Notes: generated by a model not told the origin, from the sequence alone. A stretch of 32,000 bases of DNA from Candidatus Electrothrix yaqonensis (GCA_047651235.1 CP178758.1:3330001-3362000), one strand, 5' to 3'. Shown: positions 15,570-29,514, counted from the stretch's first letter. Numbers and translations: made by a program.

Positions 15570-15757
15570 CTACGCCCCCTGCCGCTTTGCCCGCACCCGT
15601 GCCAAATCCTTATAGCATCATCTTAGATAATTCTACTTTGGCACTCACAAAGGCTGTGGTAATAATTTGCAATTCGGTTGTTTCTCATATGCGAAATCAA
15701 TCGAAGCTTGCCTCTTTTCATGCCGTTGACGAAGCTGTCTTATAACTTCATCTTCGT

Positions 15758-16632
15758 TTACATCTCGACGTGGAAAATTGACTTGAGTAATGTTGTTATA
15801 TCAGCGCAACTCAATAACGGGACACCGACTTGATGGTATAATCGTTGCTCGACCATAAACAACATGGCCATCATGACCATAGTCATATGATGATGCCAAG
15901 CCAGCCATCCCCGAGCCTGATAATCACCCATTCCACATTCATTTTTTGCATCCTGAAATGGCCGTTCAACCCAATATCGTTGAGCTTGCATATATGCAAG
16001 TCGTCTTGTTGACGTGTTACTTTCCGCATTACTTAGGCTATATTTAATTTTTTTCGGGGACTTAACCTCACGTCTGACAACTAATTCTACTTTGGTGACC
16101 ATACCATTAACTATTTAATAATATTAATAATACTAAAAACAGGGGTTTTTAAATACTTAATAAAAATAAGCTAGTTATGTTTATGATCGCCAAAGTAGAA
16201 CTACTTGACAGTTGTCGGTTTTACCAAGCTGCCCGCACCATTGACGAGAAACCCCAACAGACATTTTACCCTTTTTGGGTATCCCGGATTCATCAATAAA
16301 AAGAGCGCTATCTTCCTTTCCTCCAAAAATGTTATCCGCATCTTTAGCTACTTGGTTGTTTACAGGACGCCAATCCCAGTTCGAGTCGGAAAGAAAATAC
16401 TGGAGGGGCTCATATTTAACGCCCGGAACCTTTTCCTCCATACGTTCCATGTTTTTTTGTCAGCCTGGAATAAACCTTTCAAGTATTGGAATGCTTTATC
16501 TGACAAACTTACCGTATGTCTCTTAAAAAAATGATGATATCTTTCGTGAAAAGACGTAAGTTGCCGGGCGATGCCGGTCAACTCAAAGAATTTGTCATGG
16601 GGACTTCTTTTTTCGGGGCTGGGAGCGTTCAT
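15758..16632 (-). pseudogene. IS701-like DDE transposase, disrupted
   Basis: There are three fragments. The first two are ORF 16360..16632 (...YHHFFKRHTVSLSDKAFQYLKGLFQADKK) and ORF 16181..16450 (MERMEEKVPGVKYEPLQYFLSDSNWDW...ALFIDESGIPKKGK...GKTDNCQV). They are out of frame at a run of 7 A (complement of 16452-16458), where 8 would restore ...ADKKNMERMEE. The third is ORF 15758..16102 (...YSLSNAE...RYWVERPFQDAKNECGMGDYQARGWLAWHHHMTMVMMA). The segment that should carry the second catalytic Asp is missing. Confidence 0.7.
16084..16201 (+). mobile_element. 118-bp MITE (copy 1) sharing the IS701-like terminal repeats
   Basis: Ends are ATTCTACTTTGGTGACCAT... and ...ATGATCGCCAAAGTAGAAC, with an AT-rich core. 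It is flanked by TA/CTA on both sides (16081-16083 and 16201-16203), consistent with a target duplication. It lies inside the transposase pseudogene. Confidence 0.7.
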
Positions 16633-16840
16633 AAAAAGAATAAAGTTATAATCAGGGCGATTGACGGGTATTTTTTTGATAGCTGTTATCAGGTGCTAGC
16701 TTGATCAAAAAGCGATAAAATTTTCCTAATGAAAGATACAACTTTATCCGGATACTGCAAGAAGTTTTTACAAATAGATCAAAAGGTTATGGTTGCCAAA
16801 GTAGAATCAATCAGACCGTAATAACGGCAATGCGTTGCTT

Positions 16841-16878
16841 AGCCCTGAGTCCTCCCCGGATTCAGGGCTTTTCTTTTT
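16841..16878 (+). terminator. Intrinsic terminator-like hairpin
   Basis: AGCCCTGA (16841-16848) pairs with TCAGGGCT (16862-16869), followed by TTTCTTTTT. No intact plus-strand gene lies upstream, so it is probably a relic of the pre-IS context. Confidence 0.45.
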
Positions 16879-16918
16879 GTCCCGCCGCCTTCAATGCCCT
16901 GTTTTTCCTTCGTCGCTG

Positions 16919-16947: not shown

Positions 16948-16977
16948 GCAAAATACACTGAACATTATCTTGTTTTT

Positions 16978-17069
16978 TGCAGGGCCTCTACAACGGATAC
17001 AACATAATATCTTTCAGCAAGGACGGAATAATCAATGGACTCTGACAGCGGCGGCTTTCTGCCGATCAA
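16978..17069. repeat. Left copy of the 92-bp inverted repeat (junction of 381-aa-like gene end and AAA gene start)
   Basis: Reverse complement of 28318-28409 with 87/92 identity by hand alignment. The perfect 51-bp core is 17004-17054. It encodes an orphan GLYNGYNIISFSKDGIINGL* (16983-17045) overlapping ATG 17035. Confidence 0.85.
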
Positions 17070-19002
17070 ACAGGCTGAACTGGAAGAACAGATCAAAAAG
17101 GCATCCGCCTTTCTCCGGCGGGCTTCCTGGCACCCCAGAGTAAAAAAGGAACGCCTCCGGGAATCAGCCAATGCCCATGAGATCATCAGGAGTATCACCA
17201 ATGCCTCGGCCCAGGAAACGTCCAGCATTGCGGACAAGGCGAAACAACTCAGTGATGACCCGCTGCTGATTTATCATCCGGATGTCGCTTTTTCTATGAA
17301 TGCGGTGCGCAAAGGGATCGCGCTGGGCATGCATACGGCCAACCTGTATTCCAAGGCCTCCAATTTTTATACCCTCAAGGCCCAGCAGGCTGACGGCGCC
17401 CTGAAAAATAATCCCGAAGCCCAGACCGAATTCCGACAGAAGAATATCACCACCTCGGCGGTGCTGCTCTTTGTCACGGCCAATTATATCGTCTCCGCTT
17501 TGAGTGACTACAAAAGCGAAGCTCTGGATTCGATACAGGTCAGTTTTCCCGGTCTGCCCGAAGAACTGCATCTGGCCAATTATATCCATGCCCTCAACTA
17601 TCTGCTGTACTATCACGGCTTTTTTCTCAATGCGGACAACATCCGGACCCCGCTGGATGTTGTCAAACTGACCCAGCTTTATTACCAGGAAGTGCTCAAT
17701 GAGATAGAGTTTATCCGGGATTCCCTCAAGTATACGGAACCCTTTGAGAGCAAGGGCTACAAGCTGGAAGGCGAGGACTTTGTCATTGAAGGATTCACCG
17801 CCCATACCGTGCAGGTGAGTGGCAGCGTGGATTTCAACCGCCTGGAATGGGGAGAGATTGTCGGTAATACCATGTACAAGCACAGCTCAAAACGGACCAT
17901 CCAGTTCCTGATGTGCTATGACGTGGAGCGGAAAAAGAATCCCATCAATGAGCTGGGCGGCTTCCCTGCTGTGACCATGGAGTACGGTCCTGCCGGAACC
18001 GGCAAAAGCATGGGCATCTCCGCGACCGCAACCGAACTTCACGACCGCTGTACGGATCTGGGCATCAAGTTTTTGTATCATCCCATCCCCCAATCGGTTG
18101 TCTCCACCTATCAGGGCGGCAGCAGCGAGAACATGGAAAAATGGTTCCGCTCCGCCACCTCACCGGACATGATTATTTATGCCCCCATTGATGACGGCGA
18201 CGGCAAACTCCGCGACCGGGGCGCACGGGGTACGTCCGCCGGGGTGATTGAGGTGGTGGAGAGCTTTCTGGTCAACACCGAGGGCGCTTCGGCAGCCAAG
18301 CAGGGCAACCGGCTGATCCAGATCTACACCAATCTGCCGGAAACTCTGGATAAAGCCGTGCTGTCCCGCGTGCAGAAACGCTCCCTGCTTGCCGGAGCCA
18401 CCACTGTCGAGGATTTTCTGGATCAGGATTATATCTGGTGGCAGACCTATGAGACTATGGTGCCCGGTTTTGTGGATATGCAGCATCCGGAAGAGTACGA
18501 GTTCATGTCCGCTCAGGAAATTGCCGACCGGATCAGCGAAAAATATGATGAACAGGGCGAAGCTCAGGTCTACAAAATCAAGACGATTATCGAAAAAACC
18601 ATGCAGGAGCACAGTATTGAAGAGCATCTGTTCTTTGCCCGGCTCTTTCATACTATCAAAGCCGAGTTTCCCGGCTTCACTTCACGGGATGTGCGGAACA
18701 TCCAGACTGCCGTCAATACTCGGCTGACGGATTTTGATTTTCCTGCTGAATGGATGAATGATCATGCCTGCTTTTTCGCCGGATCTTATGATGAAAAACT
18801 GAGCATGCTCAAGGAGCTGATGAAGGCGAATATGCAGGGCCTGTCGTTCGCCAGTATCCGCTTTCAGGAGGTGGTCCGGTATCTGGACAATATGGCCATG
18901 ATCGTGGACAAGGATTTTGAAAACAAGGTGGCCCAGCGTATGGAGGAATATCGGGTGGAACAGGAGGCCCGGCGGCGCCTAGCGGAAATAACAGCAGCCT
19001 GA
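17035..19002 (+). CDS. AAA+ ATPase (classical AAA, SpoVK/CbbX/EccA-like) with large helical N-domain and C-terminal extension
   Basis: 655 aa. Walker A: EYGPAGTGKSMG. Walker B region: MIIYAPIDDGDGKL (Asp-Asp instead of Asp-Glu). Sensor-1: IYTNLPETLD. LSRVQKR resembles the SRF-type arginine motif. About 310 aa of helical sequence precede the ATPase and about 200 aa follow it. Confidence 0.85.
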   Translation: MDSDSGGFLPIKQAELEEQIKKASAFLRRASWHPRVKKERLRESANAHEIIRSITNASAQETSSIADKAKQLSDDPLLIYHPDVAFSMNAVRKGIALGMHTANLYSKASNFYTLKAQQADGALKNNPEAQTEFRQKNITTSAVLLFVTANYIVSALSDYKSEALDSIQVSFPGLPEELHLANYIHALNYLLYYHGFFLNADNIRTPLDVVKLTQLYYQEVLNEIEFIRDSLKYTEPFESKGYKLEGEDFVIEGFTAHTVQVSGSVDFNRLEWGEIVGNTMYKHSSKRTIQFLMCYDVERKKNPINELGGFPAVTMEYGPAGTGKSMGISATATELHDRCTDLGIKFLYHPIPQSVVSTYQGGSSENMEKWFRSATSPDMIIYAPIDDGDGKLRDRGARGTSAGVIEVVESFLVNTEGASAAKQGNRLIQIYTNLPETLDKAVLSRVQKRSLLAGATTVEDFLDQDYIWWQTYETMVPGFVDMQHPEEYEFMSAQEIADRISEKYDEQGEAQVYKIKTIIEKTMQEHSIEEHLFFARLFHTIKAEFPGFTSRDVRNIQTAVNTRLTDFDFPAEWMNDHACFFAGSYDEKLSMLKELMKANMQGLSFASIRFQEVVRYLDNMAMIVDKDFENKVAQRMEEYRVEQEARRRLAEITAA

Positions 19003-19089
19003 GATGAAATTGCTCAAGGAAAAAAACTTGCGTTATTAAGGAACAACTCTAATTATCACACGGAACGCGACAAGTTGTAGGAATATCTT

Positions 19090-20154
19090 ATGAAAAAAAA
19101 GAATAAGCACCTCTGTGACTATCTTTATACGGACACCAGAAAGATTCTCTCCGTGTACAGCCAGCTGACCGGGGCGGTTGTTGCCGCCGGAGAATCCGTG
19201 TATACGACGGCCAGTCAGGCGGAGAATAAAAAGAAATACGATTTCAAGATATTCAAGAACGTAAAGAACGATGCTGACGGCAGCACCCAGGATAAGCAGG
19301 GCCTGCAGGAGCAGGTCAGGTCGCACCATACCCTGTTCCGGGAGCTTGAAGAGGAACTGGTGCATCAGGGATATCTGCTCGATTTATCTGGTAAAGAAAT
19401 GGCCAAAAAGATTCAGGACAAGGAATTCAGAAAGACGTTAAAGGATACGTTCTGTGTCAGAGTGACAGGAAGATGCGTCATCGAGCATTACGAGAGGATG
19501 AAAAAAATCTCCGAGTCGTTTCCGAATATCGCCGCGCTCATTAACCAGAGCAATAAAGCAGCGGTGAAAAACACGGAAGCGTATAAAAAACTCGTCGAAC
19601 AAATTAAAACCAAAGAGGCTGAAGTCGCAAGAATCAAAGACAGAAATGCCAGAAATATACAGCAGGCTCCATTAAAAGAACAAAAAAAACGGCTGACAGC
19701 GCTGCTGGAAGAGCAGACCACGGCCGGCATGGTTGAGCAGTGGGTTCTTGACGGCCTGAAAACCTGGATCGATACCTTCATACCGGGAATCATTAATCTG
19801 CGGGTCTATCCGGCGCAGGAGCACATGGATGTACAGGTGTTCGGACATCTGAAGCAGGATAATTTCTTTGACATGGATATCAGCGGATTCCACTTTACCT
19901 ACGGCTCAATCCCGACCGAAGAGATGACGATGATCGGTATTGTTACTTCCGTACCCAACCCGGAGGATGCTGAGTTCAATCCCCATCAGGAATTCCAGGC
20001 CGGTGAGCTGTCGAGCAGGGAAGCTGTGGAGCGCGGCTTCCGTGGTGTCTTCCGGGGATTTGATACCTTTGAACAGATGGTACGCACCTGCAGATATCCG
20101 AGGGTGCTGGTGTATCCCCTGCTGGTGTACCGGCAGATGGGGGCGAAGAAATAA
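19090..20154 (+). CDS. Hypothetical 354-aa protein (no family recognised), downstream partner of the AAA+ ATPase
   Basis: Long ORF with uniform coding character. N-terminus: CDYLYTDTRKILSVYSQLTG. Central Lys/Glu-rich helical segment. C-terminus: ...CRYPRVLVYPLLVYRQMGAKK. A diverged copy of the C-terminus survives at 22353-22439. Confidence 0.7.
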   Translation: MKKKNKHLCDYLYTDTRKILSVYSQLTGAVVAAGESVYTTASQAENKKKYDFKIFKNVKNDADGSTQDKQGLQEQVRSHHTLFRELEEELVHQGYLLDLSGKEMAKKIQDKEFRKTLKDTFCVRVTGRCVIEHYERMKKISESFPNIAALINQSNKAAVKNTEAYKKLVEQIKTKEAEVARIKDRNARNIQQAPLKEQKKRLTALLEEQTTAGMVEQWVLDGLKTWIDTFIPGIINLRVYPAQEHMDVQVFGHLKQDNFFDMDISGFHFTYGSIPTEEMTMIGIVTSVPNPEDAEFNPHQEFQAGELSSREAVERGFRGVFRGFDTFEQMVRTCRYPRVLVYPLLVYRQMGAKK

Positions 20155-20169
20155 TTTTTCTGATCAAAC

Positions 20170-20212
20170 GCGGATCTTCAGCCCGAAGGATCACCTTGGA
20201 CTGAAGATCCGC
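20170..20212. terminator. Hairpin between convergent genes (probable bidirectional terminator)
   Basis: 12-bp perfect stem GCGGATCTTCAG (20170-20181) / CTGAAGATCCGC (20201-20212) with a 19-nt loop. It lies between the stops at 20154 (+) and 20224 (-). Confidence 0.55.
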
Positions 20213-20223
20213 CTCCCTTCTAT

Positions 20224-22167
20224 CTATCCTTCTGTCTTTACGCCCTCTACCTCTCCTACCTCCTCTTCCTGCACCAATCTGCCCTTACACGCCTCCAGAA
20301 TACTTGCCAGCATTTGACTGTAGGACATGTCCTGCAGCGCAGCCATCTTGGCCAGGTGGCCGTCCCAGCACCAGCCCGGATTGGGATTGACTTCCAGCAG
20401 TCGAGGCGTACCGTTGTCGTCCACGCGCCAATCAAAGCGGGCATAATCACGGCACTCCAGGCGTTCAAAGAGCTTGACGCAGCTTGCACCCAGGAAGCGC
20501 TCCACATCTTCGGACAATTCTGCCGGAATGGATGTGATTTTCCAGTACGGTGAATCCGGATTCCATTTGGCCTCGTAGCCGCAGATTCTGGGCAGGTCTT
20601 CAGGCAGGGCTGAATAGTCTTCCTCAATCACGGGCAGTATCATATATGAGCTGCCCGGATTACCGACAATCCCCACGCTGATATCCTTGCCGGTGAGGAA
20701 CTCTTCAACCAGGATGGGATTGTTATACCCGAATTTATCCCGGATCCCGGTCACGGCACTTTCCAGAGTTTCCAGATCATAGCAGACATTGCTCTGGGTA
20801 ATACCGAAGCTGGAGTCCCCGAAATTCGGCTTGACAATCACCGGAAAGGTGAGCGGAAATTCAACAAACTGGATATCCTCCGGTTTGATCATAAACGCAC
20901 CCGGAACCGGGATATCCATTTCCGTGGCAATCCCCCGGATCAGCGACTTGTCGTAGCAGTAGGCCAGGCATTGCGGAGTACCGCCGGAATAATGCATACC
21001 CAGCAGTTCCAGCAGAGCAGCCACATGCAGTTCCTTGGTCGCCTCATTCTGAAAGCCTTCATCACAGAGATTGAACACATAAGTGCATTTCCCCTGGAGC
21101 TTGATCAGATCCTGAAGCAGAGTATCGTGGTTGTACAGATAGGTGAAATTGCAGTTCGGGATCTCTGCCAGGGCCTTTTTCAGCTCATTGATGGTATGGA
21201 AATCGTCGTCATCAAAATTAGCTCCCGGCTTGACCACATCTGTTTTGCCTGGATCGCCCAGCAGAACAACGACTGAGTCGGCTACATCGGGACTTTCACG
21301 GACTGCGGACCATTCTTTGTGGGCTACCCCGGTTATTACCACCCGCCGGGCCATCATACCTAAGTCCTGGTTCCGTTTTGATTCTGCTGCAACCTCTGTG
21401 CAGCTCCGGCAATCCCTGAAACCTGCCTTGGACAGCAACGTGTCAAGCTCCTCTATAGAATAAAGGCGTTCTGCATAGAACTGATCCGCAATCACGCCTT
21501 TGGTCACATGGGTGATCACTTCTCTGGAAACCAGCCGTTCCCGATTTTCTGAGAGCGAACGCTCCCGGCAGACAAAATAATTCTTATCTATCCACTCCCA
21601 GCTGCGGGCATCAAAATGCTCGCGCATATATTCACCGTCCGTGATATCAATGAGCAGTCTGCCGTCGGGCCGCAGAATGCGCATAACCTCTTTCAGAATT
21701 CTGGCATCATCCTTACTGGAGTCAAAATAGCCGAAGCTGTTGCCTGCAATGATCACCGCATGGAATTCATCGGTTGGAAAAGGCAGTTTCCGGGCATCAC
21801 CTTCTTTAAAAAGGACATTCATCCCTTCAGTCCTGCTGACTTTTCTGGCCCGGTTGATCAGGTAATGGGAACGGTCCAGGCCGACAACATTGCTGTACCC
21901 CCTGCGGGCTATCTCCAGGGTATGCCGTCCCTGACCGCAGCAGAGATCCAGGATTTTACTCTCCTTGGGCAGATCAAGGGTATTGAGAAAAATATCCACC
22001 TCTTTTTTAGTGATTTCCTTATCTTCAACCACATCACCGTCGGTACGCAGATAATTGGCATTAAAGAGATGCCGCCACCAGTCAGCCTTGACGTAGCTTT
22101 CCAGGTTATCAACCGGCCCCAGCACCTCAACGATCTTTTTAGTTCTGCTTTTTTTCGGCTTTGCCAT
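20224..22167 (-). CDS. Fusion protein: class I SAM-dependent methyltransferase (N) + D-Ala-D-Ala-ligase-like ATP-grasp ligase (C)
   Basis: ORF 20224..22197. Start at ATG 22167 (MAKPKKSRTKK...) with GAGGGA RBS. MTase motif I: ILDLCCGQGRH. Post-I: VVGLD. ATP-grasp signatures: FPVIVKPNFGDSSFGI, ILVEEFLTGKDISVGIVG, ARFDWRVDDNGTPRLLEVNPNPG. Confidence 0.85.
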   Translation of the reverse strand: MAKPKKSRTKKIVEVLGPVDNLESYVKADWWRHLFNANYLRTDGDVVEDKEITKKEVDIFLNTLDLPKESKILDLCCGQGRHTLEIARRGYSNVVGLDRSHYLINRARKVSRTEGMNVLFKEGDARKLPFPTDEFHAVIIAGNSFGYFDSSKDDARILKEVMRILRPDGRLLIDITDGEYMREHFDARSWEWIDKNYFVCRERSLSENRERLVSREVITHVTKGVIADQFYAERLYSIEELDTLLSKAGFRDCRSCTEVAAESKRNQDLGMMARRVVITGVAHKEWSAVRESPDVADSVVVLLGDPGKTDVVKPGANFDDDDFHTINELKKALAEIPNCNFTYLYNHDTLLQDLIKLQGKCTYVFNLCDEGFQNEATKELHVAALLELLGMHYSGGTPQCLAYCYDKSLIRGIATEMDIPVPGAFMIKPEDIQFVEFPLTFPVIVKPNFGDSSFGITQSNVCYDLETLESAVTGIRDKFGYNNPILVEEFLTGKDISVGIVGNPGSSYMILPVIEEDYSALPEDLPRICGYEAKWNPDSPYWKITSIPAELSEDVERFLGASCVKLFERLECRDYARFDWRVDDNGTPRLLEVNPNPGWCWDGHLAKMAALQDMSYSQMLASILEACKGRLVQEEEVGEVEGVKTEG

Positions 22168-22201
22168 GTTTTTTGTCCCTCTGCGCCTGTTGCGCAAAAA
22201 A

Positions 22202-22229
22202 ATGCTGCCTGTTCAGCAGCATGAACAGG
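22202..22229 (-). promoter_or_regulatory. Two mutually exclusive hairpins plus U-tract in the leader of the methyltransferase/ATP-grasp gene
   Basis: The minus strand reads CCTGTTCA TGCTGC TGAACAGG CAGCAT TTTTTT. One structure is the terminator-like stem ATGCTGC/GCAGCAT (22222-22202), followed by the complement of the A-run 22196-22201. The other is the competing 8-bp stem CCTGTTCA/TGAACAGG (22229-22208). The ATG is about 30 nt downstream. Confidence 0.4.
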
Positions 22230-22304
22230 CCCGATATACGGGCGTGCTCCAACGCGCGTGCGCCGGATACGAACACCTGCTCTGATGTTTCCCTTTACAC
22301 GACA
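22227..22304 (+). repeat. 78-bp direct repeat, copy A
   Basis: AGGCCCGATATACGGGCGTGCTCCAACGCGCGTGCGCCGGATACGAACACCTGCTCTGATGTTTCCCTTTACACGACA has one mismatch to 23400-23477. Weaker similarity continues about 24 nt further. The internal hairpin GGCGTGC-N10-GTGCGCC has two G.U pairs that only work on the plus strand. Confidence 0.8.
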
Positions 22305-22352
22305 GCACGGCTTTCAGCCAGTAAAATGACAATGGAAACAGAACCGGACTGT

Positions 22353-22439
22353 ATTTTTCAAGGACAGAATAGTGGGTACCTGCAGACCTACAGATACCCG
22401 AAGGCGCTGGTGTCTCCACTGCTGATGTATCACCTGATG
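22353..22439 (+). pseudogene. C-terminal remnant of a paralogue of the 354-aa gene
   Basis: IFQGQNSGYLQTYRYPKALVSPLLMYHLM compares with VFRGFDTFEQMVRTCRYPRVLVYPLLVYRQM at 20050-20142. Nucleotide similarity is roughly 80 percent over the last ~50 nt by eye. There is no upstream coding continuation. Confidence 0.5.
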
Positions 22440-22558
22440 TGTCAGGTCGTCTTTCCTGTTTTTCCTTGACTTTTCTGTTTCAGGGTGTTCTGTTCCGGGC
22501 ATCCGATAAAAACGGGTTGAGCGGAATTTATATCAAAACAACTGAAAGGAATTTGGCG

Positions 22559-23335
22559 ATGCGACATAGAATACGCTTTCCAAAAAGAGATACAGAAACT
22601 CTTGGACAGGATGAAATATTTTTTTATTTGATGAATCCATCCGGCAGCGAAAAAATTCGTTTCCATGATTATGACCTTATTTACAGCAGACCGAATTTAT
22701 ATGAACAGCTGTTTTATGAACGGCTTCAGTGTCAGTCGCCGATAAAGGTAACGGAAATTCTGGAACATGCTCTTAATCAGTCAGAGCATAATCTCAGCGA
22801 ACTGAGAGTGCTGGATTTCGGCGCCGGAAACGGTATGATGGGAGAGACGTTAAAAAATCAGGGCGTTGCGAGGCTGATCGGTGTGGACATCATCCCGGAA
22901 GCCAGGGAAGCAACGGAAAGAGACAGGCCGGGGATATACGATGCATACTATGTTGCTGATTTCTGCAATCCTGATGAAGAACTTCATGAGGAAATAGCCT
23001 CATGGATGCCGGACTGCCTGACAACAGTGGCTGCCCTCGGATTCGGAGATATTCCGCCTCAGGCCTTTTTCAGAGCGTTTAATCTTATCCGGAGCAAAGG
23101 CTGGGTGGCGTTCAATATCAAAGAGACGTTTTTAAGTCACTCTGATACTTCGGGGTTTTCCCGCATGATCCGCGAGCTGATGTTTTCGGAATATTTTCAT
23201 GTCTACCATATGGAGCGGTACCGCCACAGGATGTCGATGGACGGCAAGCCCTTGTACTATTTCGGAGTTGCAGGAAGAAAGAACGCTCACATCCCCGATA
23301 CGTTCTTATCGGAATATAATCTCCACGGCTGTTGA
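22559..23335 (+). CDS. Class I SAM-dependent methyltransferase
   Basis: ORF 22439..23335. Start at ATG 22559 (MRHRIRFPKRDTE...) with AAAGGA RBS. Motif I: VLDFGAGNGMMG. Post-I: LIGVDI. N-terminal segment: IRFHDYDLIYSRPNLYEQLFYERLQCQSP. Confidence 0.8.
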   Translation: MRHRIRFPKRDTETLGQDEIFFYLMNPSGSEKIRFHDYDLIYSRPNLYEQLFYERLQCQSPIKVTEILEHALNQSEHNLSELRVLDFGAGNGMMGETLKNQGVARLIGVDIIPEAREATERDRPGIYDAYYVADFCNPDEELHEEIASWMPDCLTTVAALGFGDIPPQAFFRAFNLIRSKGWVAFNIKETFLSHSDTSGFSRMIRELMFSEYFHVYHMERYRHRMSMDGKPLYYFGVAGRKNAHIPDTFLSEYNLHGC

Positions 23336-23399
23336 ATCTGTTGTTTCCTGCGTGATGATTGTTCCGGGAAAATCCTGTAATATTGTCCTTGAAGCAGCT

Positions 23400-23477
23400 A
23401 GGCCCGACATACGGGCGTGCTCCAACGCGCGTGCGCCGGATACGAACACCTGCTCTGATGTTTCCCTTTACACGACA
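23400..23477 (+). repeat. 78-bp direct repeat, copy B
   Basis: Same sequence as 22227-22304 except T/C at the ninth base. It lies 65 nt after the methyltransferase stop. Confidence 0.8.
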
Positions 23478-23730
23478 ACTGCGCTGTCTACCAGCAAAAT
23501 CCATCGCTCAAAGACACAGGCCGATCTTTTTTTGTCCTGCAGATCTGCCGCGTTCTGCAACTGCAGGACAGAACAATGAACCGGCGGCCCGCAGTTCGTT
23601 CAGAACCCGAATATTCCTTGATGTTACCCGGTGACGGTGTAAATATACATCTGTGCCGAATACAGTAAAGCGGTACCTCAGGGGGAGGGCGGGGTGACGC
23701 CCGGTCGGGAGGGTGAAGCGGAGGGGATTG

Positions 23731-24310
23731 ATGGAACTGGAACTGCTCGGACAGATCTGGCAATGGATTGCGGAGGCTGAAGCATGGGAATGGGTGTTCA
23801 GCGGGGTCGGGCTGCCGATAGCCGGATGGCTTATCCTGCGTTACCGAAGAAAGCCCCCTGCTCCGCAGGACACCGCCCCGCCGGTCAGTAACACCTTTAC
23901 CAGCAGCGGCAGTGGTGATCAGAACATTGCACAGGGCGATCATCCCATCGGCAAGCAGGTTAACCTCAATGCGGAAGAGATCACCTCACCGCAGCAGGAG
24001 GCAACGGGCCACCACAACGTCTTCAGCCAGACCGGCGATGTCCGTTATGAGGAACATCACCACCACTACGCCCGCACCGAACAGGGTATCCCTTTGCAGC
24101 GGCCCAGGCAGGCCGAGCATCTTGTGGGCAGGGAGAAACTGCTCAAGGAAGTACTGGCCGCGCTCCGGCCCGGCAGGGCGGTAACGCTCTGCGGACCCGG
24201 CGGCATCGACAAGACCGCGCTGGCCTCCAGGGTTGCCTGGGAGCTGAGTCCTGACGGCCAGCCCCCTGCCCTGTTCCCGGACGGCCTGATCTTCTACTTG
24301 TCGCGTCCCG
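23731..24310 (+). pseudogene. N-terminal stump of a membrane-anchored STAND (NB-ARC-type) NTPase, truncated by IS insertion
   Basis: MELELLGQIWQW...GVGLPIAGWLILRY is a TM helix. It is followed by a low-complexity linker, then LVGREKLLKEVLAAL..GRAVTLCGPGGIDKTALASRVA (Walker A). The reading frame runs into the IS end (TGTGA at 24311) and stops there. Confidence 0.65.
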
Positions 24311-25405
24311 TGTGATAATATACCTGCGAGAAGTTGGCCCTTGTTTCTTGCCCGTGAACGTATAACCGTTCTTTTATCAGAACATAAACTGCCCGGTTTA
24401 TCATCATGAATATCGCACTGCACAAAAGAGCGCGTACAACCCCGGCTGTCCGCCGGGAAATTCAGCGCTCAGAACTTTCCGAACGTAAGTTGTCGGAAAA
24501 ATACGGCATCAGCAGAAGTACGGTCCGGAAATGGAAATACCGTGATACCGCCGACGATTTTTCGCACAGGCCGCATAATCTGCACGCGACGCTCACGGAT
24601 CCGGAAGAAGCCGTGGTTGTTGAGCTGCGCAGAACGCTCCTTCTTCCGATTGACGATCTCCTTGTTGTTGTGCGTGAATTCATCTGTCCGCATATGTCGC
24701 GCTCCGCCCTTGACCGCTGCCTGCGGCGGCACGGAGTCTCAAATCTGAAAGAGCTGATCCCGGCGGAGGAAAACGAAGAGAACCGTCCGAAAACATTTAA
24801 AGATTACGAACCTGGTTTTGTGCATGCCGATATAAAATATCTCCCGCGGATGCCGGACGAAACGGAGCGGAAATATCTTTTTGTCGGCATCGACAGGGCC
24901 ACCCGGTGGGTGTACATGGAGATCCGGGCTTCGAAAACTGCGGAATCCGCCCGCTCTTTTCTGAATAATCTCATTGGGAAGGCCCCGTTCATGATCTCAA
25001 AAATTCTCACCGACAACGGGAAGGAGTTCACCGACCGTTTCTGCCCGTCCGGAGAGCGTGAACCGACCGGAAATCACGTATTTGATCGGAAATGCGGGGA
25101 GAACGGCATTGAGCACCGTCTGATAAAACCGCGCAGACCGCAGACAAACGGCATGGTCGAGCGCTTCAACGGCAGAAGTAAAGAAGTTGTTCAGCAGACA
25201 AAGTTTGAATCGTCCCGTCAGCTTAAGGAAATACTGCTGCAGTATCTCCGTATTTACAATCACCATATTCCGCAGAAAAATCCCGGTCATATCACGCCGG
25301 TTGAGGCTCTGAAAAATTGGCGGAAAACGCATCCCGATTTATTTAAAAAACAGGTATACAATCAGTCGGGGCTTGACACGTATGTAGTAAAGTGACTTGT
25401 TCACA
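24311..25405 (+). mobile_element. IS481-family insertion sequence (apparently intact)
   Basis: Ends are TGTGA... (24311) and ...TCACA (25405), enclosing a complete transposase gene. The boundaries are approximate and I could not identify a target duplication. Confidence 0.7.
24406..25395 (+). CDS. IS481-family transposase (HTH + rve integrase core)
   Basis: 329 aa. N-terminal HTH: LSEKYGISRSTVRKWKYR. DDE core: FVHADIKYL...LFVGIDRATRW...ILTDNGKEF...RPQTNGMVERFN. Confidence 0.9.
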   Translation: MNIALHKRARTTPAVRREIQRSELSERKLSEKYGISRSTVRKWKYRDTADDFSHRPHNLHATLTDPEEAVVVELRRTLLLPIDDLLVVVREFICPHMSRSALDRCLRRHGVSNLKELIPAEENEENRPKTFKDYEPGFVHADIKYLPRMPDETERKYLFVGIDRATRWVYMEIRASKTAESARSFLNNLIGKAPFMISKILTDNGKEFTDRFCPSGEREPTGNHVFDRKCGENGIEHRLIKPRRPQTNGMVERFNGRSKEVVQQTKFESSRQLKEILLQYLRIYNHHIPQKNPGHITPVEALKNWRKTHPDLFKKQVYNQSGLDTYVVK

Positions 25406-25644
25406 CCTCCTCCGACAGAAATGCCTTAGGCCTGCACGTTATTGCTGTAATCCGACTTCGAGATCCCGTTCCAATCCGGTCGTACTGACCGGAACGGCTC
25501 TTTCTGTTTTCGTCCGGATGCGCCGGGTCGTTGAAAAATTACGATCAGGGATGAGGATGGGTATTTTGTGCGTCTGGGGACCAAGGTCAGCGGGAAGATG
25601 CTTGAGAAGAAATAGAGTTGACGGAGGTCGGGTGCAGCGGCTGG

Positions 25645-26070
25645 TTATATACCCTGTCGTGGCGGCGGGGAAATACCGCAGCTTGAATCGCTAAGTTCTC
25701 GGAAAAGGGTCCCCTCCGATCTGGATGAAACTGTGTAAGTTTCGGTTAGGCTACATAGAATATTATTTCCCGAGTCAACTGCCTGTATTTGAAAATCTAT
25801 TGGTCCCGTAGGTATATTCTGGATGGTACATGAATAGGTAATAGCGGAAGAATCGAAAGTCATGGGAATGCTTGTGCCGTAAAAAACTTGCCTATGGGTT
25901 AAAGAGAACTTTACGGTACTGATAGCGATTGCACCCGAGAAGTTGTCGACTGTCACGGTTATGGTGACATCCTGTCCACCACTGCTGTGAGGAGGAGAAT
26001 CTACACTACCACAGGACGAACATTGTAAGGCTGCTATTGCAGCCATAATAAACACAAAAGTTATTCGCAT
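25645..26070 (-). CDS. Small secreted protein or lipoprotein, beta-sandwich-like
   Basis: ORF 25645..26130. Start at ATG 26070 (MRITFVFIMAAIAALQCSSCGS). It has a signal peptide with a non-canonical lipobox-like LQC, followed by alternating beta-strand pattern. It is the last gene of the AT-rich cluster. Confidence 0.55.
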   Translation of the reverse strand: MRITFVFIMAAIAALQCSSCGSVDSPPHSSGGQDVTITVTVDNFSGAIAISTVKFSLTHRQVFYGTSIPMTFDSSAITYSCTIQNIPTGPIDFQIQAVDSGNNILCSLTETYTVSSRSEGTLFRELSDSSCGISPPPRQGI

Positions 26071-26151
26071 CGTCGTTTTCTCTCTATTAGGGCAGCAAGA
26101 ATGCTTTGCTATTGACCAAAGCATTCCCATGGTACAGTCACTTTGACCAAA

Positions 26152-27153
26152 TTATTCATCCTCTTGTTCGTAGGTTTCGGTGTTGGCCAAGTCCATAGAT
26201 TCGTCATTGGGCATCACCGGTACATCTGAAAGAATCTTGTAGTTCGCTTTCGGATTCTTCAACACAGGGATAATCCAATCGCCATCATAGGACGTTCCGT
26301 CGTACTGCGCAACCTCTCCCAATGTAAAGAGTGCCGGTTCAATCGTTGTCCCGTCATCATATAAAATATACCTCGCATCGGTAACATTGAGACTGTCAAC
26401 AAGATCTTTTTTCGACTTTTTGTAGTGACGAGTGAGCATCTCCTTGACTTGTTTTTTGACCTGTGTTTCAGATAGATAATCGTTCGCATCAAATTTCAGA
26501 TTCTTCGACATCTTGGTCCATTTTTTGATGAGTCCGGCAAGTTCACCATCCTCGCCAAGAGTGACGACCATGCGTGAGTGACCAACAACTGGAACATCCT
26601 TTATGCGACGGTCATAATATACGGTGACCAGTTTCTTGTAGTCCTGAGAAGTCCCGTCTTCACTATTGTACACTGCTTTATTCACACCGCCCACATGCGC
26701 AAGCTTAAGTTCGCTACGGATTGATCCTTTGAGGATGCCCAGGTCGGCCATATGCTTTTTGGCAATCCGCACCGCTTCGTTCTTTCCTGGCAGGTTGCTG
26801 GTATCTCCATCACCTTCGTACTTCTTGGTTCCCTTGTTGAAAACAACATCATCGCCTTCCAAGGCAAGGTATCCCGCTGGGTCGTTCTCGACGCTAAAAA
26901 GCTGCTCGGATGCACCTGTCTTAGAGTTATTTTCGGATAGAGTGACATCGGTATAGGAGCTTATTCTTTCAGCCCAGCCTTTTGTTTTTTTTTGTTTGGA
27001 GGATTCTTGTTCGAGCATATACTCAAACCCTCCTCCGTCCTGGTGTAGACCGTTCTCAACGTCAATCTGCATATTATCGACATTCACCTCTTGAGCATGA
27101 ACATTCGCCACGCACATGGTGGCTATTGCGGCAAACGTAATGATAGCTTTCAT
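26152..27153 (-). CDS. Secreted 333-aa protein of unknown function
   Basis: Signal peptide MKAIITFAAIATMCVANVHAQE with AAAGGAG RBS. Lys/Asp-rich body. The segment NEAVRIAKKHMADLGIL resembles propeptide/PepSY-type helices (weak). Confidence 0.65.
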   Translation of the reverse strand: MKAIITFAAIATMCVANVHAQEVNVDNMQIDVENGLHQDGGGFEYMLEQESSKQKKTKGWAERISSYTDVTLSENNSKTGASEQLFSVENDPAGYLALEGDDVVFNKGTKKYEGDGDTSNLPGKNEAVRIAKKHMADLGILKGSIRSELKLAHVGGVNKAVYNSEDGTSQDYKKLVTVYYDRRIKDVPVVGHSRMVVTLGEDGELAGLIKKWTKMSKNLKFDANDYLSETQVKKQVKEMLTRHYKKSKKDLVDSLNVTDARYILYDDGTTIEPALFTLGEVAQYDGTSYDGDWIIPVLKNPKANYKILSDVPVMPNDESMDLANTETYEQEDE

Positions 27154-27181
27154 TGTTTTCTCCTTTCTGGATTTTTTTGGA

Positions 27182-27919
27182 TTAGTACTGGTACCAATTA
27201 ACTAGGTAGCTTGGGTTCGGCTCATCAGGGGCATGAGAATACTTGTAGCGATCATTTTGTACACCTGGAGTCATCACGGCAGAACCGAACTCAGCAAGTT
27301 TTTCCCACCACCAGAAACCGGTGTGATAACCTTCGGCGTTGATAGCATCGAACCACGACTGCCAAACTAAATTGTTACCAGCCATTCGTGCGCCAAAGTA
27401 GTTAGAGATGTCGTCTGCGGTGGAGATTACCGCATTGGTTCTGAATCCAAGAGCTTGATGGAGTCCGTCGAAGATACCGGTAGATGATTGCCAAGGTGAC
27501 CACCAGTCACTTCTTTCCAGAGAGCTGGGGATTGTCTGACATGAGTGAAAAACGATGAACTCTGTGTCGTTATCTCCATAGCCACCATTGGATGACCAGC
27601 CAACATTTCCCAAGTTGATATACGTAGATGCACCGCTTCCTGCACCATTGGAATAGACCCCGATGAGGTACTGGTTTCCATGACCACAGTAGTAGGCGAA
27701 ATCCACGCTGTCGACAAAGCCGTTGTTGGCCAACGTAAACATGGGCTCGCTCGCCCAATAGTATTGCTCATAATCAAAATGCTTGATGAAGTTGTAGACA
27801 ACTCCGGGGGTTGCAGGATCGTTGCCACAGTACCCTCCTTCTTCCCACGCCAGAGCATGAGCCGTGGACGACATAGTCAACAACAGGCCAGCGGTCATAA
27901 GAATGGATGTATTTCGCAT
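27182..27919 (-). CDS. Secreted 245-aa protein with clan-CD-peptidase-like His/Cys arrangement
   Basis: Signal peptide MRNTSILMTAGLLLTMSSTAHA. A hydrophobic strand then His-Gly (VDFAYYCGHGN), followed by a second hydrophobic strand ending in Cys (TEFIVFHSCQT). This order (His before Cys, each after a beta-strand) is that of caspase/gingipain/legumain-type enzymes. Trp/Tyr-rich C-terminus. Confidence 0.6.
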   Translation of the reverse strand: MRNTSILMTAGLLLTMSSTAHALAWEEGGYCGNDPATPGVVYNFIKHFDYEQYYWASEPMFTLANNGFVDSVDFAYYCGHGNQYLIGVYSNGAGSGASTYINLGNVGWSSNGGYGDNDTEFIVFHSCQTIPSSLERSDWWSPWQSSTGIFDGLHQALGFRTNAVISTADDISNYFGARMAGNNLVWQSWFDAINAEGYHTGFWWWEKLAEFGSAVMTPGVQNDRYKYSHAPDEPNPSYLVNWYQY

Positions 27920-27960
27920 AGTTTTCCCCTTCTATGAATAAATATTTGTATTTGATACTA

Positions 27961-28078
27961 TTTCTACTTTGGCGATCATAAACATAACTATCTTATTTTT
28001 ATTAAGTATTTAAAAACCCCTGTTTTTAGCATTATTAATATTATTAAATAGTTAATGGTATGGTCACCAAAGTAGAAC
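27961..28078 (-). mobile_element. 118-bp MITE (copy 2), inverted relative to copy 1
   Basis: Reverse complement of 16084-16201 with only a few mismatches (e.g. CTATCTT vs CTAGCTT, TAGCATT vs TAGTATT). It is flanked by TA/CTA (27958-27960 and 28078-28080) and sits 42 nt upstream of the 245-aa gene start. Confidence 0.7.
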
Positions 28079-28304
28079 TATTCTTGACTCATTATGGAGT
28101 GCTCTACATTTTTGGATCACCTCCTCTTATCTCTACAGTCGTAAGTTCTCTGGTGACTTGCATTGCAGGATTTAGGTTGAAACTTACAGGGGGGGTAACC
28201 TTCCTGTTAATAAAAAAGTATTTATATCAGCATGATCGGTAACAATTGTTATTCCCGTGCAAGGTTAAAACCCCTATAGAATTTGATTGCATAATCTCAA
28301 TAAA

Positions 28305-28352
28305 CTACAGGGTCATCTTGATCGGCAGAAATCCGCCGCTGTCAGAGTCCAT
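28305..28352 (-). pseudogene. Orphan 5' end of the AAA+ ATPase gene
   Basis: ATGGACTCTGACAGCGGCGGATTTCTGCCGATCAAG... gives MDSDSGGFLPIK, then MTL and a stop. The first 12 codons encode the same peptide as 17035-17070. It overlaps the 381-aa gene stop by 11 nt. Confidence 0.6.
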
Positions 28353-28409
28353 TGATTATTCCGTCCTTGCTGAAAGATATTATCTTGTATCCTTTGTAGA
28401 AGCCATGCA
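28318..28409. repeat. Right copy of the 92-bp inverted repeat
   Basis: Reverse complement of 16978-17069. The perfect core is 28333-28383. It contains the true 3' end of the 381-aa gene. Confidence 0.85.
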
Positions 28410-29487
28410 CATGCTGATGCAGCTTATAGGGCATAATCGCTATCTTGCGGATAAGGGAGGCCTTCTGTGCTTCCAGTTCGTTGAAAACCGAATATTCATC
28501 AACATCGGTTGGCTTTGGAATATAAAAGCGTTCCCTGACCCGCTCTCCGGTTAAAATATTGCCGAGCGCCTGCTGATCCTTGATCACAGTCTGTCCGGCG
28601 GAAAAGACAAACTGCTCGGTCAGATGAAAGACAAATTTTCTCCCCTCATCTCCTGCTGCGAACAGCTGTTCTGTTTCTTCCGGCAGATTGACGGAAAAGG
28701 ACTGGGAATAGATCGGGCCGATGCAGATACGCTTGAGCATCTTGGGGTGAACAGATTCAAGCCGCTGGTCAATCGCCATAGCCACAATACCTACTGCCGG
28801 GGCCCGTGCGCCCTCCGAACGGATAACCTCCATGAAGCGGTCAAAAGCCTCCTGTTTTTTTTGACGCAGGGGTGGCTCGTCTCTGTCCTGCTTAAAATCA
28901 AGCAGATAAATATAGGGTCTGTTGCTTAGCTTATCGTAGCAGGCCCAGTAATACAGATACCGTCTTTTCTTTCTGTCTCCTGTCTGCAGGGGGATCAGCT
29001 GTCCCTCATTAAAAAAGAGAAAAAGGTTTTCCCGGATCAGCCCCCTGCGGTAGACATTATCCGCCATCCTGGCCAGCAGTTCTTCAGGTTCTTTGCGCTT
29101 TTCCAGAAGAGAGGAGAGGATCTGCTCTTTCAGTTCCTGCCCTTTATCTTCAGGAGCCTGTTCATTCTGCCGTAAAAGATCGGTTTCAAGCTGGGCGATT
29201 TCATAAAAATTGACAAAGCCGGAGTCGCTTTTGTCGATTTTCAGGCTGTCCGAAGAATTGAAGAGATATTTAATCCGGAGAAGGTCAAAAGTATAGGAGA
29301 GTTTTCTGAGGAAGGTCAGGACAATATCATGCTCTGTCACGGCCTCCTGTTCCCTCTCCTTTTTTAACGCATAGAGCTGTTCAACCGCCTTGAATGCTGT
29401 CAGGGTCTTGGTCATGTACTTGACATGCTCCTCCCGTTGCTCCAGGGCAACCAGATCATGGAGTGAGTACTCATCCCAGTTCAACAT
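28342..29487 (-). CDS. Hypothetical 381-aa protein (no family recognised)
   Basis: Long ORF 27 nt downstream of the 455-aa gene. Helical N-half. The C-half has RRYLYYWACYDKLSNRPYIYLLDF and ends GFYKGYKIISFSKDGIINGL. No TM segments or signal peptide are apparent. Confidence 0.7.
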   Translation of the reverse strand: MLNWDEYSLHDLVALEQREEHVKYMTKTLTAFKAVEQLYALKKEREQEAVTEHDIVLTFLRKLSYTFDLLRIKYLFNSSDSLKIDKSDSGFVNFYEIAQLETDLLRQNEQAPEDKGQELKEQILSSLLEKRKEPEELLARMADNVYRRGLIRENLFLFFNEGQLIPLQTGDRKKRRYLYYWACYDKLSNRPYIYLLDFKQDRDEPPLRQKKQEAFDRFMEVIRSEGARAPAVGIVAMAIDQRLESVHPKMLKRICIGPIYSQSFSVNLPEETEQLFAAGDEGRKFVFHLTEQFVFSAGQTVIKDQQALGNILTGERVRERFYIPKPTDVDEYSVFNELEAQKASLIRKIAIMPYKLHQHVHGFYKGYKIISFSKDGIINGL

Positions 29488-29514
29488 GTCGGCAACAGCT
29501 TCTTAGATAAAAAA

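What the first reader, a model, noticed from the sequence alone, without database searches (positions are those of the whole stretch)
16978..28409. 92-bp inverted repeats made from a gene-gene junction bracket 11.2 kb and split a translationally coupled operon (fossil or switchable inversion)
16978-17069 is the reverse complement of 28318-28409: 87/92 identical, with a 51-bp perfect core at 17004-17054 / 28333-28383. The repeat is not an IS end. It is the 11-nt overlap junction between the 381-aa gene and the AAA+ gene.

- The right copy holds the real 3' end of the 381-aa gene (...GFYKGYKIISFSKDGIINGL*) followed by only MDSDSGGFLPIK-MTL*.
- The left copy holds an orphan GLYNGYNIISFSKDGIINGL* followed by the complete 655-aa AAA+ gene, which starts with the same MDSDSGGFLPIK.

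Flipping 17070-28317 would give a contiguous minus-strand operon: 455 aa, 381 aa, AAA+, 354 aa. As sequenced, AAA+ and the 354-aa gene sit behind a sigma-70-like promoter (16919-16947) that lies outside the repeat. In the flipped state the same promoter would face the secreted-protein cluster (27919 down to 25645). A second, interleaved inverted pair (the MITE copies at 16084 and 27961) shows the region has rearranged more than once. No invertase gene is visible, so any switching would have to be RecA-type or use a distant recombinase.
Basis: partly seen in the sequence, partly recalled or inferred. Interest (0 to 1): 0.8.

Follow-up and report, generated by a model that had tools for sequence, protein, structure and literature searches.

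The report
Old duplicated gene junction, flipped once
The 92-bp inverted repeat is real, but it is an old duplication of a gene-gene junction that brackets a variable gene island in many cable bacteria as a direct repeat, and in this genome one copy was turned round by rearrangements whose edges carry insertion-sequence ends, so this is ordinary genome plasticity with one unusual detail and there is no evidence of a designed switch.

Summary
Observation confirmed: 16978-17069 and 28318-28409 are 92-nt inverted repeats made from the 381-aa/AAA+ overlap junction.

Interpretation partly supported. The window is from the closed, Nanopore-assembled genome of Candidatus Electrothrix sp. YB6.

- In Desulfopila and several metagenomic relatives, the genes for the 455-aa, 381-aa, AAA+ and DUF6638 proteins and two further proteins form one contiguous operon.
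- In at least four other Electrothrix lineages the same junction is already duplicated, as direct repeats. The order is 381, J1, variable cargo (toxin-antitoxin pairs, enzymes; 1-10 kb), conserved terminator plus promoter, J2, AAA+. The duplication therefore pre-dates the inversion and was not made by it.
- The two copies share lineage-specific substitutions, which points to gene conversion.
- In YB6 only a 2.2-kb block (16809-19026: terminator, promoter, J2, AAA+ and a 7-codon DUF6638 stub) is inverted. It abuts an IS701-like end without target duplication on one side and lies 26 nt from a lone IS481-type end on the other.
- The 354-aa DUF6414 gene is not the native fourth gene.
- The MITE pair are independent insertions.
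- Homologous flipping across the 51-bp core is possible but untested.

Interest is modest.

The parts
28318..28409 (-). J1: the right repeat copy. It holds the true 3' end of the 381-aa gene plus a remnant of the first 12 codons of AAA+, which runs into MTL*.
   Evidence: Orthologous J1 remnants occur in L002, L004, L005, L006, L008, L009 and L012.
16978..17069 (+). J2: the left repeat copy. It holds an orphan copy of the 381 tail, which now serves as the 5' leader and ribosome-binding region, plus the true start of AAA+.
   Evidence: The same left edge is seen in L004, L006 and L011.
16809..16893 (+). R: a conserved repeat unit containing an intrinsic-terminator hairpin (16841-16869 followed by a T tract). 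It marks the distal edge of the island in all relatives.
   Evidence: nhmmer: one copy in the window, three in L011, one each in L004, L006, L008 and L010
16919..16947 (+). P: a sigma-70-type promoter (TTGACA, 17 nt, TATCAT) that drives AAA+ independently of the 455 and 381 genes. Its core, GTCGCTGTTGACACATA, is invariant in five genomes.
17035..19002 (+). AAA+ ATPase gene (655 aa, classic Cdc48/Vps4-type AAA domain at residues 317-449). It is intact.
   Evidence: 77-88% identical to full-length orthologues
19004..19024 (+). Stub of the DUF6638 gene: ATGAAATTGCTCAAGGAAAAA, encoding MKLLKEK. Homology to relatives ends about 19026.
19052..19080 (-). Lone 29-nt end of IS481 type. It matches the left end of the IS481-family element at 24291-24319 at 26 of 29 positions and lies 26 nt beyond the right edge of the inverted block.
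   Evidence: I5; 0 matches expected by chance
15628..16807 (-). Degenerate IS701-like element (DDE_5 and DDE_Tnp_1 fragments). It has no target-site duplication (flanks ATAA and TCAA). Its right end lies 1-2 nt from R, which is the left edge of the inverted block.
   Evidence: homology of L011 to the window begins at 16809
16082..16203 (+). MITE copy nested inside the IS701-like element (flanks CTAA and CTAC).
27959..28080 (-). Second MITE copy, a simple insertion with a perfect CTAT/CTAT target duplication. It is not an inversion breakpoint.
28187..28317 (-). Xa: about 130 nt of non-coding sequence distal to J1, shared with E. gigas. It shows that the right side (381, J1, Xa, cargo) keeps the arrangement seen in relatives.
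28342..30882 (-). The 455-aa and 381-aa genes, the first two genes of the conserved six-gene operon. Neither has a known domain.
19090..20154 (+). 354-aa DUF6414 gene. It is accessory and is not found next to AAA+ in any relative.
24291..25425 (+). IS481-family element. The transposase is at 24406-25395 (NCBIfam 243.6 bits against a cut-off of 224). It truncates a P-loop NTPase gene (23713-24315). The right end of the element was judged by eye only.
25645..27919 (-). Cargo genes downstream of J1, Xa and the MITE: a DUF6345 protein with a signal-peptide-like N-terminus, a 333-aa protein and an Ig-like 161-aa protein. They run in the same direction as the 455 and 381 genes.

Best explanation
**Ancestral state (shown).** The ancestral locus is a six-gene operon: 455 aa, 381 aa, AAA+, DUF6638, a ~200-aa protein and a ~520-580-aa protein. 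The 381 and AAA+ genes overlap by 11 nt.

**The duplication (shown).** In an ancestor of several Electrothrix lineages, at least 118 bp of that junction (window equivalent 16978-17095) became duplicated around inserted DNA. The result was 381, J1, cargo, R (terminator), P (promoter), J2, AAA+. How the duplication arose is unknown.

**What happened afterwards.**
- Shown: the cargo has turned over repeatedly. It now holds toxin-antitoxin pairs, enzymes or secreted proteins and is 1 to more than 10 kb long. The J1 distal edge has been eroded to different points in different lineages.
- Shown: R, P and J2 stayed fixed and restart transcription of the downstream half of the operon.
- Inferred: J1 and J2 are kept alike by gene conversion, because they share lineage-specific substitutions.
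- Inferred: recombination between them can delete the island. L003 lacks it, while L011, which is 94-98% identical, has it.

**The YB6 rearrangement.**
- Inferred from the scars: a separate rearrangement associated with insertion sequences inverted the 2.2-kb block of R, P, J2, AAA+ and the DUF6638 stub. It also removed the rest of DUF6638 and genes 5 and 6 from this neighbourhood.
- Shown: the left edge of the block touches an IS701-like end that has no target duplication. Its right edge lies 26 nt from a lone IS481-type end.

**Consequence.** The old direct repeats thereby became the 92-bp inverted repeats. They now bracket the cargo plus AAA+ and could in principle flip that 11.2 kb by RecA-type recombination across the 51-bp identical core. 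That would be a by-product and not a designed switch, and it would not rebuild the ancestral operon.
For: **Contiguous operons without duplication**
- L003, L007, L013, L014 and L015.

**Direct-repeat arrangement with the same R, P and J2 module**
- L004: 1.17 kb of cargo carrying a HigB/HigA pair.
- L006: 5.1 kb of cargo.
- L008: 9.9 kb of cargo.
- L011 with L005: a 3.9-kb array.
- The R, P and J2 alignment has invariant promoter columns.
- The sequence distal to J1 is shared with E. gigas.

**Gene conversion between the copies**
- Core identity within one genome is 65/66 in YB6, 64/66 in E. gigas and 63/66 in E. aarhusensis.
- Between species it is 58-63/66; the E. aarhusensis pair (63/66) only equals its best between-species value.
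- Both E. gigas copies carry AGACAC and GGTTTTTTG, which no other genome has.

**Edges of the inverted block in YB6**
- Homology starts at 16809 and ends about 19026.
- The DUF6638 stub encodes MKLLKEK.
- A lone IS481-type end lies at 19052-19080, and the IS481-family transposase is identified.
- The IS701-like end is at 16807, with unmatched flanks.

**Other support**
- No DUF6638, gene 5 or gene 6 is present in the window.
- No YB6 protein appears among the 32 DUF6638 homologues.
- The assembly is closed and based on long reads.
Against: - The exact path of the YB6 rearrangement cannot be reconstructed from 32 kb. An in-place inversion alone does not explain why the IS701-like element and a radical-SAM gene, and not the rest of DUF6638, now lie beyond R. 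At least one more event, either a deletion or a second inversion, has to be assumed.
- The lone IS481-type end is a 29-nt match and might be something else.
- Island loss in L003 rests on a short-read metagenome-assembled genome. An assembler could in principle have skipped a segment bounded by repeats.
- The evidence for gene conversion is a handful of shared substitutions in 66 nt.
- The mechanism that first duplicated the junction is unknown.
- YB6 is described as early-branching. Sharing the module with other species therefore implies either great age or horizontal exchange, and this was not resolved.
Confidence: 0.7

Rival explanations
1. A single inversion in the YB6 lineage split a translationally coupled operon. 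Either it occurred between the 92-bp repeats, or it created them as an inverted breakpoint duplication through staggered breaks at the junction.
For: A staggered-break inversion with one 92-nt stagger would give exactly the order A, J', B, J, D seen here (my own reasoning). The 381-AAA+ overlap is intact in relatives.
Against: - The duplication, with the same J2 left edge and the same upstream terminator and promoter, exists in at least four non-inverted genomes.
- The sequence next to J1 (Xa) and the sequence next to J2 (R and P) are each shared with relatives in which the copies are direct.
- The block that is actually inverted ends at IS scars, not at the repeats.
Confidence: 0.04
2. The 11.2-kb segment flips today by homologous recombination between J1 and J2. 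The population would then hold two states: AAA+ on its own promoter, or AAA+ coupled to 381 with promoter P reading into the secreted-protein genes.
For: - The 51-bp perfect core is longer than the minimal length usually needed for RecA-dependent exchange (established knowledge from E. coli).
- The copies show concerted evolution.
- The same repeats in direct orientation appear to have deleted the island in L003, compared with L011.
Against: - There are no read data.
- A single consensus orientation was assembled from deep Nanopore data.
- No recombinase is present.
- Short-repeat recombination is rare.
- The flipped state lacks DUF6638 and genes 5 and 6, so it would not restore a working operon.
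Confidence: 0.15
3. J and/or R are attachment sites of a site-specific cassette-capture system that is integron-like or Xer/dif-module-like and uses a recombinase encoded elsewhere. The YB6 inversion would then be a product of that recombinase acting on inverted sites.
For: - L011 shows an array of three cassettes: a 394-aa protein, a HEPN/MNT pair and a HigB/HigA pair. The last two are each followed by a ~93-nt R repeat containing a hairpin, the first by a degenerate R with a promoter copy.
- Toxin-antitoxin cargo is typical of chromosomal cassette arrays (established knowledge).
- The J2 and R-P edge is fixed across species.
Against: - No integrase or recombinase is found in the window or in any cargo.
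- The J1 distal edge differs between lineages: window equivalents 17048, 17055, ~17059, 17069, 17073 and 17095.
- R looks like a plain intrinsic terminator and lacks the RYYYAAC / GTTRRRY ends of attC sites (by eye).
- One cassette is on the opposite strand.
- R is not repeated in the cargo of the other loci or of YB6.
Confidence: 0.08
4. Assembly artefact: the inverted orientation is a misjoin at the repeat.
For: Repeats are classic misassembly points. The Logan short-read contig L001 breaks inside the repeat core, at 17025.
Against: - The genome is closed and circular, assembled with Flye from Nanopore reads of a clonal enrichment and checked by read mapping.
- A 92-bp repeat is far shorter than the reads.
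- The IS scars and the DUF6638 stub are independent evidence of real rearrangement.
Confidence: 0.03

Closest known systems
Genomic islands bounded by direct repeats that copy the end of the target gene (attL/attR of integrative elements)
   Same: In relatives a variable accessory island is flanked by direct repeats derived from the insertion point. The interrupted genes stay intact because each repeat supplies the missing end. The island appears to be lost precisely in one lineage.
   Different: No integrase is found in any island. One repeat edge varies between lineages. The repeat spans a gene-gene overlap and not a tRNA or a single gene end. A conserved terminator and promoter travel with one repeat and re-drive the downstream genes.
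IS-mediated inversions and adjacent deletions in bacterial chromosomes
   Same: One edge of the inverted 2.2-kb block abuts an insertion-sequence end and the other lies 26 nt from one. One IS lacks its target duplication, and neighbouring operon genes are missing.
   Different: No pair of full IS copies brackets the block within the window, so the event cannot be assigned to a simple IS x IS exchange.
Invertible DNA switches (Hin, Fim, shufflons, Bacteroides invertons)
   Same: Inverted repeats bracket a segment whose orientation would change which genes lie behind a promoter.
   Different: There is no invertase. The repeats are leftover coding sequence 92 bp long. The segment is 11 kb of unrelated cargo. 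The same repeats are direct in related genomes, and both orientations have not been observed.
Inversions with inverted duplications at the breakpoints (staggered-break model, described for Drosophila inversions)
   Same: The layout of one sequence present at both ends of an inverted segment, in opposite orientation, is what that model predicts.
   Different: Here the duplication is older than the inversion and is present in genomes that are not inverted.
Chromosomal integron cassette arrays and clusters of attC sites without an integrase
   Same: In L011, toxin-antitoxin cassettes are separated by a repeated ~93-nt hairpin-containing element.
   Different: There is no IntI and no attC end motifs. 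Cassettes lie on both strands and carry their own signals. The array form is seen in one lineage only.

Membership tests
Site-specific invertible switch | A serine or tyrosine invertase gene lies in or next to the invertible segment | tested here: not met
   Pfam and NCBIfam scans of the large ORFs (about 90 aa and longer) that I took as genes across the window found only IS701-like fragments and an IS481-family DDE transposase.
Site-specific invertible switch | Both orientations are present in the population | not testable with these tools
   No read data are available. The only short-read contig, L001, ends inside the repeat core and carries no orientation information.
Site-specific invertible switch | The inverted arrangement of the repeats is conserved in relatives | tested here: not met
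   The repeats are direct in L004, L006, L008 and L011, and absent in L003, L007 and L013-L015.
Breakpoint duplication made by the inversion itself | The duplication is found only in the inverted genome | tested here: not met
   The same duplication, with the same J2 edge, occurs in non-inverted genomes.
Integrative island with att repeats | Direct repeats derived from the target flank the island | tested here: met
   J1 and J2 are direct in L004, L006 and L011, and L008 shows J1 with the co-oriented R-P module at its contig end. They are inverted only in YB6.
Integrative island with att repeats | An integrase is encoded at one end of the island | tested here: not met
   None is found in the cargo of L004, L006, L008 or L011, or in the window.
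Integrative island with att repeats | Repeat boundaries (a common core) are fixed across independent islands | tested here: inconclusive
   The J2 left edge is fixed. The J1 distal edge varies from window equivalent 17048 to 17095. This could reflect later erosion.
Integron cassette array | IntI integrase with an attI site, and attC sites with RYYYAAC / GTTRRRY ends | tested here: not met
   No integrase was found. The R sequence was read by eye and lacks those ends. No attC model was available to run.
IS-mediated rearrangement | IS termini lie exactly at the edges of the rearranged block | tested here: met
   The IS701-like end is at 16807 and homology starts at 16809. The IS481-type end is at 19052-19080 and homology ends about 19026.
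IS-mediated rearrangement | The IS involved has lost its matching target-site duplication | tested here: met
   The IS701-like flanks are ATAA and TCAA. The uninvolved MITE keeps CTAT/CTAT.
IS-mediated rearrangement | A partner IS copy carries the reciprocal flanks | not testable with these tools
   This needs the rest of the 3.74-Mb YB6 chromosome.

The most novel reading that the evidence does not exclude
The duplicated junction, together with the R and P module, is a dedicated platform that captures and exchanges gene cassettes inside a conserved operon of cable bacteria, using recombination at J and/or R. In YB6 the platform has been converted into a reversible 11-kb inversion that toggles AAA+ between its own promoter and coupling to the 381 gene.
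Probability: 0.07. Interest if true: 0.7.

Novelty: new variant of a known kind. Interest (0 to 1): 0.33.

Why it matters
- **A caution for sequence-only scans.** The case shows how a striking inverted repeat built from coding sequence can arise without any switch. An old direct duplication around an accessory island was converted to an inverted one by a later rearrangement whose edges carry IS scars.
- **A recurrent hotspot in cable bacteria.** The comparative result identifies an island hotspot inside a conserved six-gene operon of unknown function in cable bacteria. A portable terminator and promoter module keeps the downstream half expressed, and the flanking repeats show signs of gene conversion. 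This is useful for annotating Electrothrix genomes and for anyone studying this AAA+/DUF6638 operon.
- **Limits.** It does not open a long-standing question.

Tried and rejected
- **MITE x MITE recombination as the cause of the inversion.** Flipping 16204-27958 would give a direct J1...J2 layout. I rejected this because the right MITE has a perfect CTAT/CTAT target duplication. In the present state the IS701-like element also reads through once the nested MITE is removed.
- **Staggered-break origin of the repeat.** Rejected because of the direct-repeat relatives.
- **attC or dif-like reading of R and J.** No convincing motif was found by eye, and no recombinase was found.
- **Rfam and tRNA scans of the window.** Nothing was found.
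- **Synteny of window flanks with relatives beyond the operon.** None was found.
- **Exact-protein look-up of the 381-aa protein.** It is not on record.
- **Literature on DUF6638, and on cable-bacteria transposases.** Nothing was found.
- **Orientation-specific evidence from Logan contigs.** This is impossible, because the 51-bp identical core exceeds the k-mer length and the proteins are identical in both states.

Full report
**1. Observation**

The repeat is real. The repeat finder gives arms 16978-17069 and 28318-28409, 92 nt, 95% complementary and 11,248 nt apart. The alignment shows the long identical core. The promoter-like site 16919-16947 scores 11 of 12.

The window comes from Candidatus Electrothrix sp. 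YB6. The 381-aa protein is 100% identical to a YB6 protein on a 3,738,687-bp contig. That genome is closed and circular, assembled with Flye from Nanopore reads of a clonal enrichment and polished with Illumina reads (PMC12093952). A misjoin at a 92-bp repeat is therefore unlikely.

**2. Gene content**

| Coordinates | Strand | Product |
|---|---|---|
| 17035-19002 | + | Classic-clade AAA ATPase, nearest solved relatives Cdc48, Vps4 and spastin |
| 19090-20154 | + | DUF6414 protein |
| 28342-29487 | - | 381-aa protein, no known domain |
| 29515-30882 | - | 455-aa protein, no known domain |

Between the repeats lie two methyltransferase genes (one also carrying an ATP-grasp domain), a P-loop NTPase gene cut by an IS481-family element (transposase 24406-25395, 243.6 bits against a cut-off of 224), and three genes for likely exported proteins.

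Left of the repeat is a degenerate IS701-like element (15628-16807) with a 122-bp MITE nested in it. A second MITE copy sits at 27959-28080. No recombinase other than the DDE transposases is present among the large ORFs scanned across the window.

**3. Relatives: the operon**

Loci encoding homologues of the 381-aa protein were fetched from genomes and metagenomes.

- In Desulfopila sp. IMCC35008 (L007), an Electrothrix MAG (L003) and three more distant contigs (L013-L015), the genes are contiguous and co-directional, and 381 and AAA+ overlap.
- The conserved unit has six genes: 455, 381, AAA+, DUF6638 (about 417 aa), a ~200-aa protein and a ~520-580-aa protein.
DUF6414 never follows AAA+ in any relative.

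**4. Relatives: the duplication is old and normally direct**

| Locus | Species | Cargo between J1 and the R-P module |
|---|---|---|
| L004 | E. aarhusensis | 1.17 kb, HigB/HigA pair |
| L006 | E. gigas | 5.1 kb, including a BrnT toxin |
| L008 | closest relative of YB6 with context (381 protein 91% identical) | 9.9 kb of enzymes |
| L011, with L005 | E. marina-like | 3.9-kb array |

In L004 the order is 381, a truncated AAA+ start, the cargo, a terminator hairpin, a promoter, an orphan 381 tail and then the complete AAA+ gene. The 137 nt upstream of that orphan tail match window 16841-16977. The other three lineages have the same layout with different cargo; the L008 contig ends inside the promoter, so it shows J1, cargo and a co-oriented R-P module but not J2 itself. 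L012 has a J1 remnant and more than 10 kb of other genes.

The terminator and promoter alignment has an invariant GTCGCTGTTGACACATA core in five genomes. The J2 left edge is the same everywhere. The J1 distal edge differs: window equivalents 17048, 17055, ~17059, 17069, 17073 and 17095. Two lineages share the longest version, so the original duplication was at least 118 bp.

YB6 and E. gigas also share about 130 nt beyond J1. The duplication therefore pre-dates the YB6 inversion and was not produced by it.

**5. Concerted evolution and island loss**

- In the 66-nt core, the two copies within a genome match at 65/66 (YB6), 64/66 (E. gigas) and 63/66 (E. aarhusensis). Between species the figure is 58-63/66, so the E. 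aarhusensis pair only ties with its best between-species value.
- Both E. gigas copies carry AGACAC and GGTTTTTTG, which no other genome has. These include changes in the non-coding copy that mirror coding changes in the other copy. This is best explained by gene conversion between J1 and J2.
- L003 lacks the island, while L011, which is 94-98% identical to it, carries it. This fits precise deletion by J1 x J2 exchange. The caveat is that L003 is a short-read MAG.

**6. What is inverted in YB6**

- Homology of the window to relatives on the AAA+ side runs from 16809 (L011) to about 19026.
- Immediately after the AAA+ stop codon, the window keeps ATGAAATTGCTCAAGGAAAAA. This encodes MKLLKEK, the N-terminus of DUF6638. 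The sequence then diverges.
- At 19052-19080 there is a 29-nt sequence matching the left end of the IS481-family element at 24291-24319 at 26 of 29 positions, in opposite orientation and with no IS body attached.
- On the other side, R begins 1-2 nt from the right end of the IS701-like element (16807). That element's flanks (ATAA and TCAA) do not form a target duplication.
- DUF6638, gene 5 and gene 6 are absent from the window. No YB6 protein appears among 32 DUF6638 homologues.

Relative to every other Electrothrix locus, YB6 therefore differs by inversion of a 2.2-kb block (R, P, J2, AAA+ and the stub), with IS scars at or beside both edges and with loss of the downstream genes. The right side (455, 381, J1, Xa, cargo) is in the usual arrangement.

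The MITE pair is not involved. The right copy has a perfect CTAT/CTAT duplication, which a MITE x MITE exchange would have broken.

**7. Mechanism and its limits**

Shown:
- the ancestral operon;
- the shared direct duplication with its terminator and promoter module;
- the variable cargo;
- the edges of the inverted block and the IS ends there.

Inferred:
- gene conversion between the copies;
- island loss by repeat exchange;
- IS mediation of the YB6 event, together with at least one accompanying deletion.

Unknown:
- how the junction was first duplicated. Integration of a circular DNA carrying a copy of the junction, or a tandem duplication followed by replacement, are both possible, and no integrase is found;
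- the exact order of events in YB6.

The present inverted repeats, with a 51-bp identical core, could support rare RecA-type flipping of 17070-28317. It would not restore the six-gene operon, and it could not be tested here.

**8. An array variant**

L011 shows the island as three cassettes: a 394-aa protein, a HEPN/MNT pair on the opposite strand and a HigB/HigA pair. The HEPN/MNT and HigB/HigA cassettes are each followed by a ~93-nt R copy; the 394-aa cassette is followed by a degenerate R and an extra P copy after it, and a further full R copy then precedes the HEPN/MNT cassette.

This resembles cassette arrays. However, it lacks an integrase and attC-type ends, and it is seen in one lineage only. 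I keep a site-specific cassette system as a low-probability rival.

**9. Verdict**

- The reading as a fossil inversion of a coupled operon is right in spirit, because the junction is native and the AAA+ gene has been turned round. It is wrong on the origin of the repeats, the breakpoints, the fourth gene and the meaning of the MITEs.
- The reading as a switch is unsupported.
- The finding is a variant of known phenomena: an accessory island bounded by target-derived repeats, plus an IS-associated inversion.
- Its mildly unusual features are a portable restart promoter and concerted evolution of the flanking repeats inside an operon of unknown function in cable bacteria.

Noticed in passing
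L011:1-5971 (metagenome contig Ga0316189_10020570): The island between 381 and AAA+ is an array. It holds a 394-aa gene, a HEPN/MNT pair and a HigB/HigA pair. The two toxin-antitoxin cassettes are each followed by a ~93-nt terminator-containing repeat R (copies at 1935, 3055 and 3976); the 394-aa gene is followed by a degenerate R. There is also an extra copy of the promoter at 1849-1894.
   Followed up: partly
window 22227-22327 and 23400-23500: A 101-nt direct repeat, 91% identical with an ~80-nt near-perfect core, flanks the 298-aa methyltransferase gene (22439-23335). There is no Rfam match and its origin is unknown.
   Followed up: partly
window 23713-24315: The 5' part of a P-loop (STAND/AAA_16-like) NTPase gene is cut off at the left end of the IS481-family element (24291). 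The remainder of the gene is not in the window.
   Followed up: no
window 6506-10153 (-): A 1215-aa protein combines caspase (Peptidase_C14), NB-ARC/NACHT and TPR domains. This is a STAND-type architecture of the kind linked to conflict or cell-death systems.
   Followed up: no
window 28187-28317 and L006:11180-11316: About 130 nt of non-coding sequence just beyond J1 is conserved between YB6 and E. gigas, although their cargo differs. It has promoter-like and RBS-like features (CTGATATAAATA, ACAGGAGG).
   Followed up: partly
L004:12370-14348: In the E. aarhusensis MCF draft, the AAA+ gene is split into two ORFs (403 and 256 aa). This is either a frameshift or a sequencing error.
   Followed up: no
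L003:14364-17862: A second insertion of about 3.5 kb lies between DUF6638 and gene 5 of the operon in this Electrothrix MAG. Other junctions of the operon therefore also accept insertions.
   Followed up: no
window 15628-16807: After the nested MITE is removed, the IS701-like element reads as a single 190-codon frame that lacks the middle of the DDE domain. The MITE sits exactly where the internal deletion is.
   Followed up: partly
window 11150-12141: Two adjacent HSP20 (alpha-crystallin) genes lie in tandem. Desulfopila locus L007 has a homologous gene at about 4250-4560.
   Followed up: no
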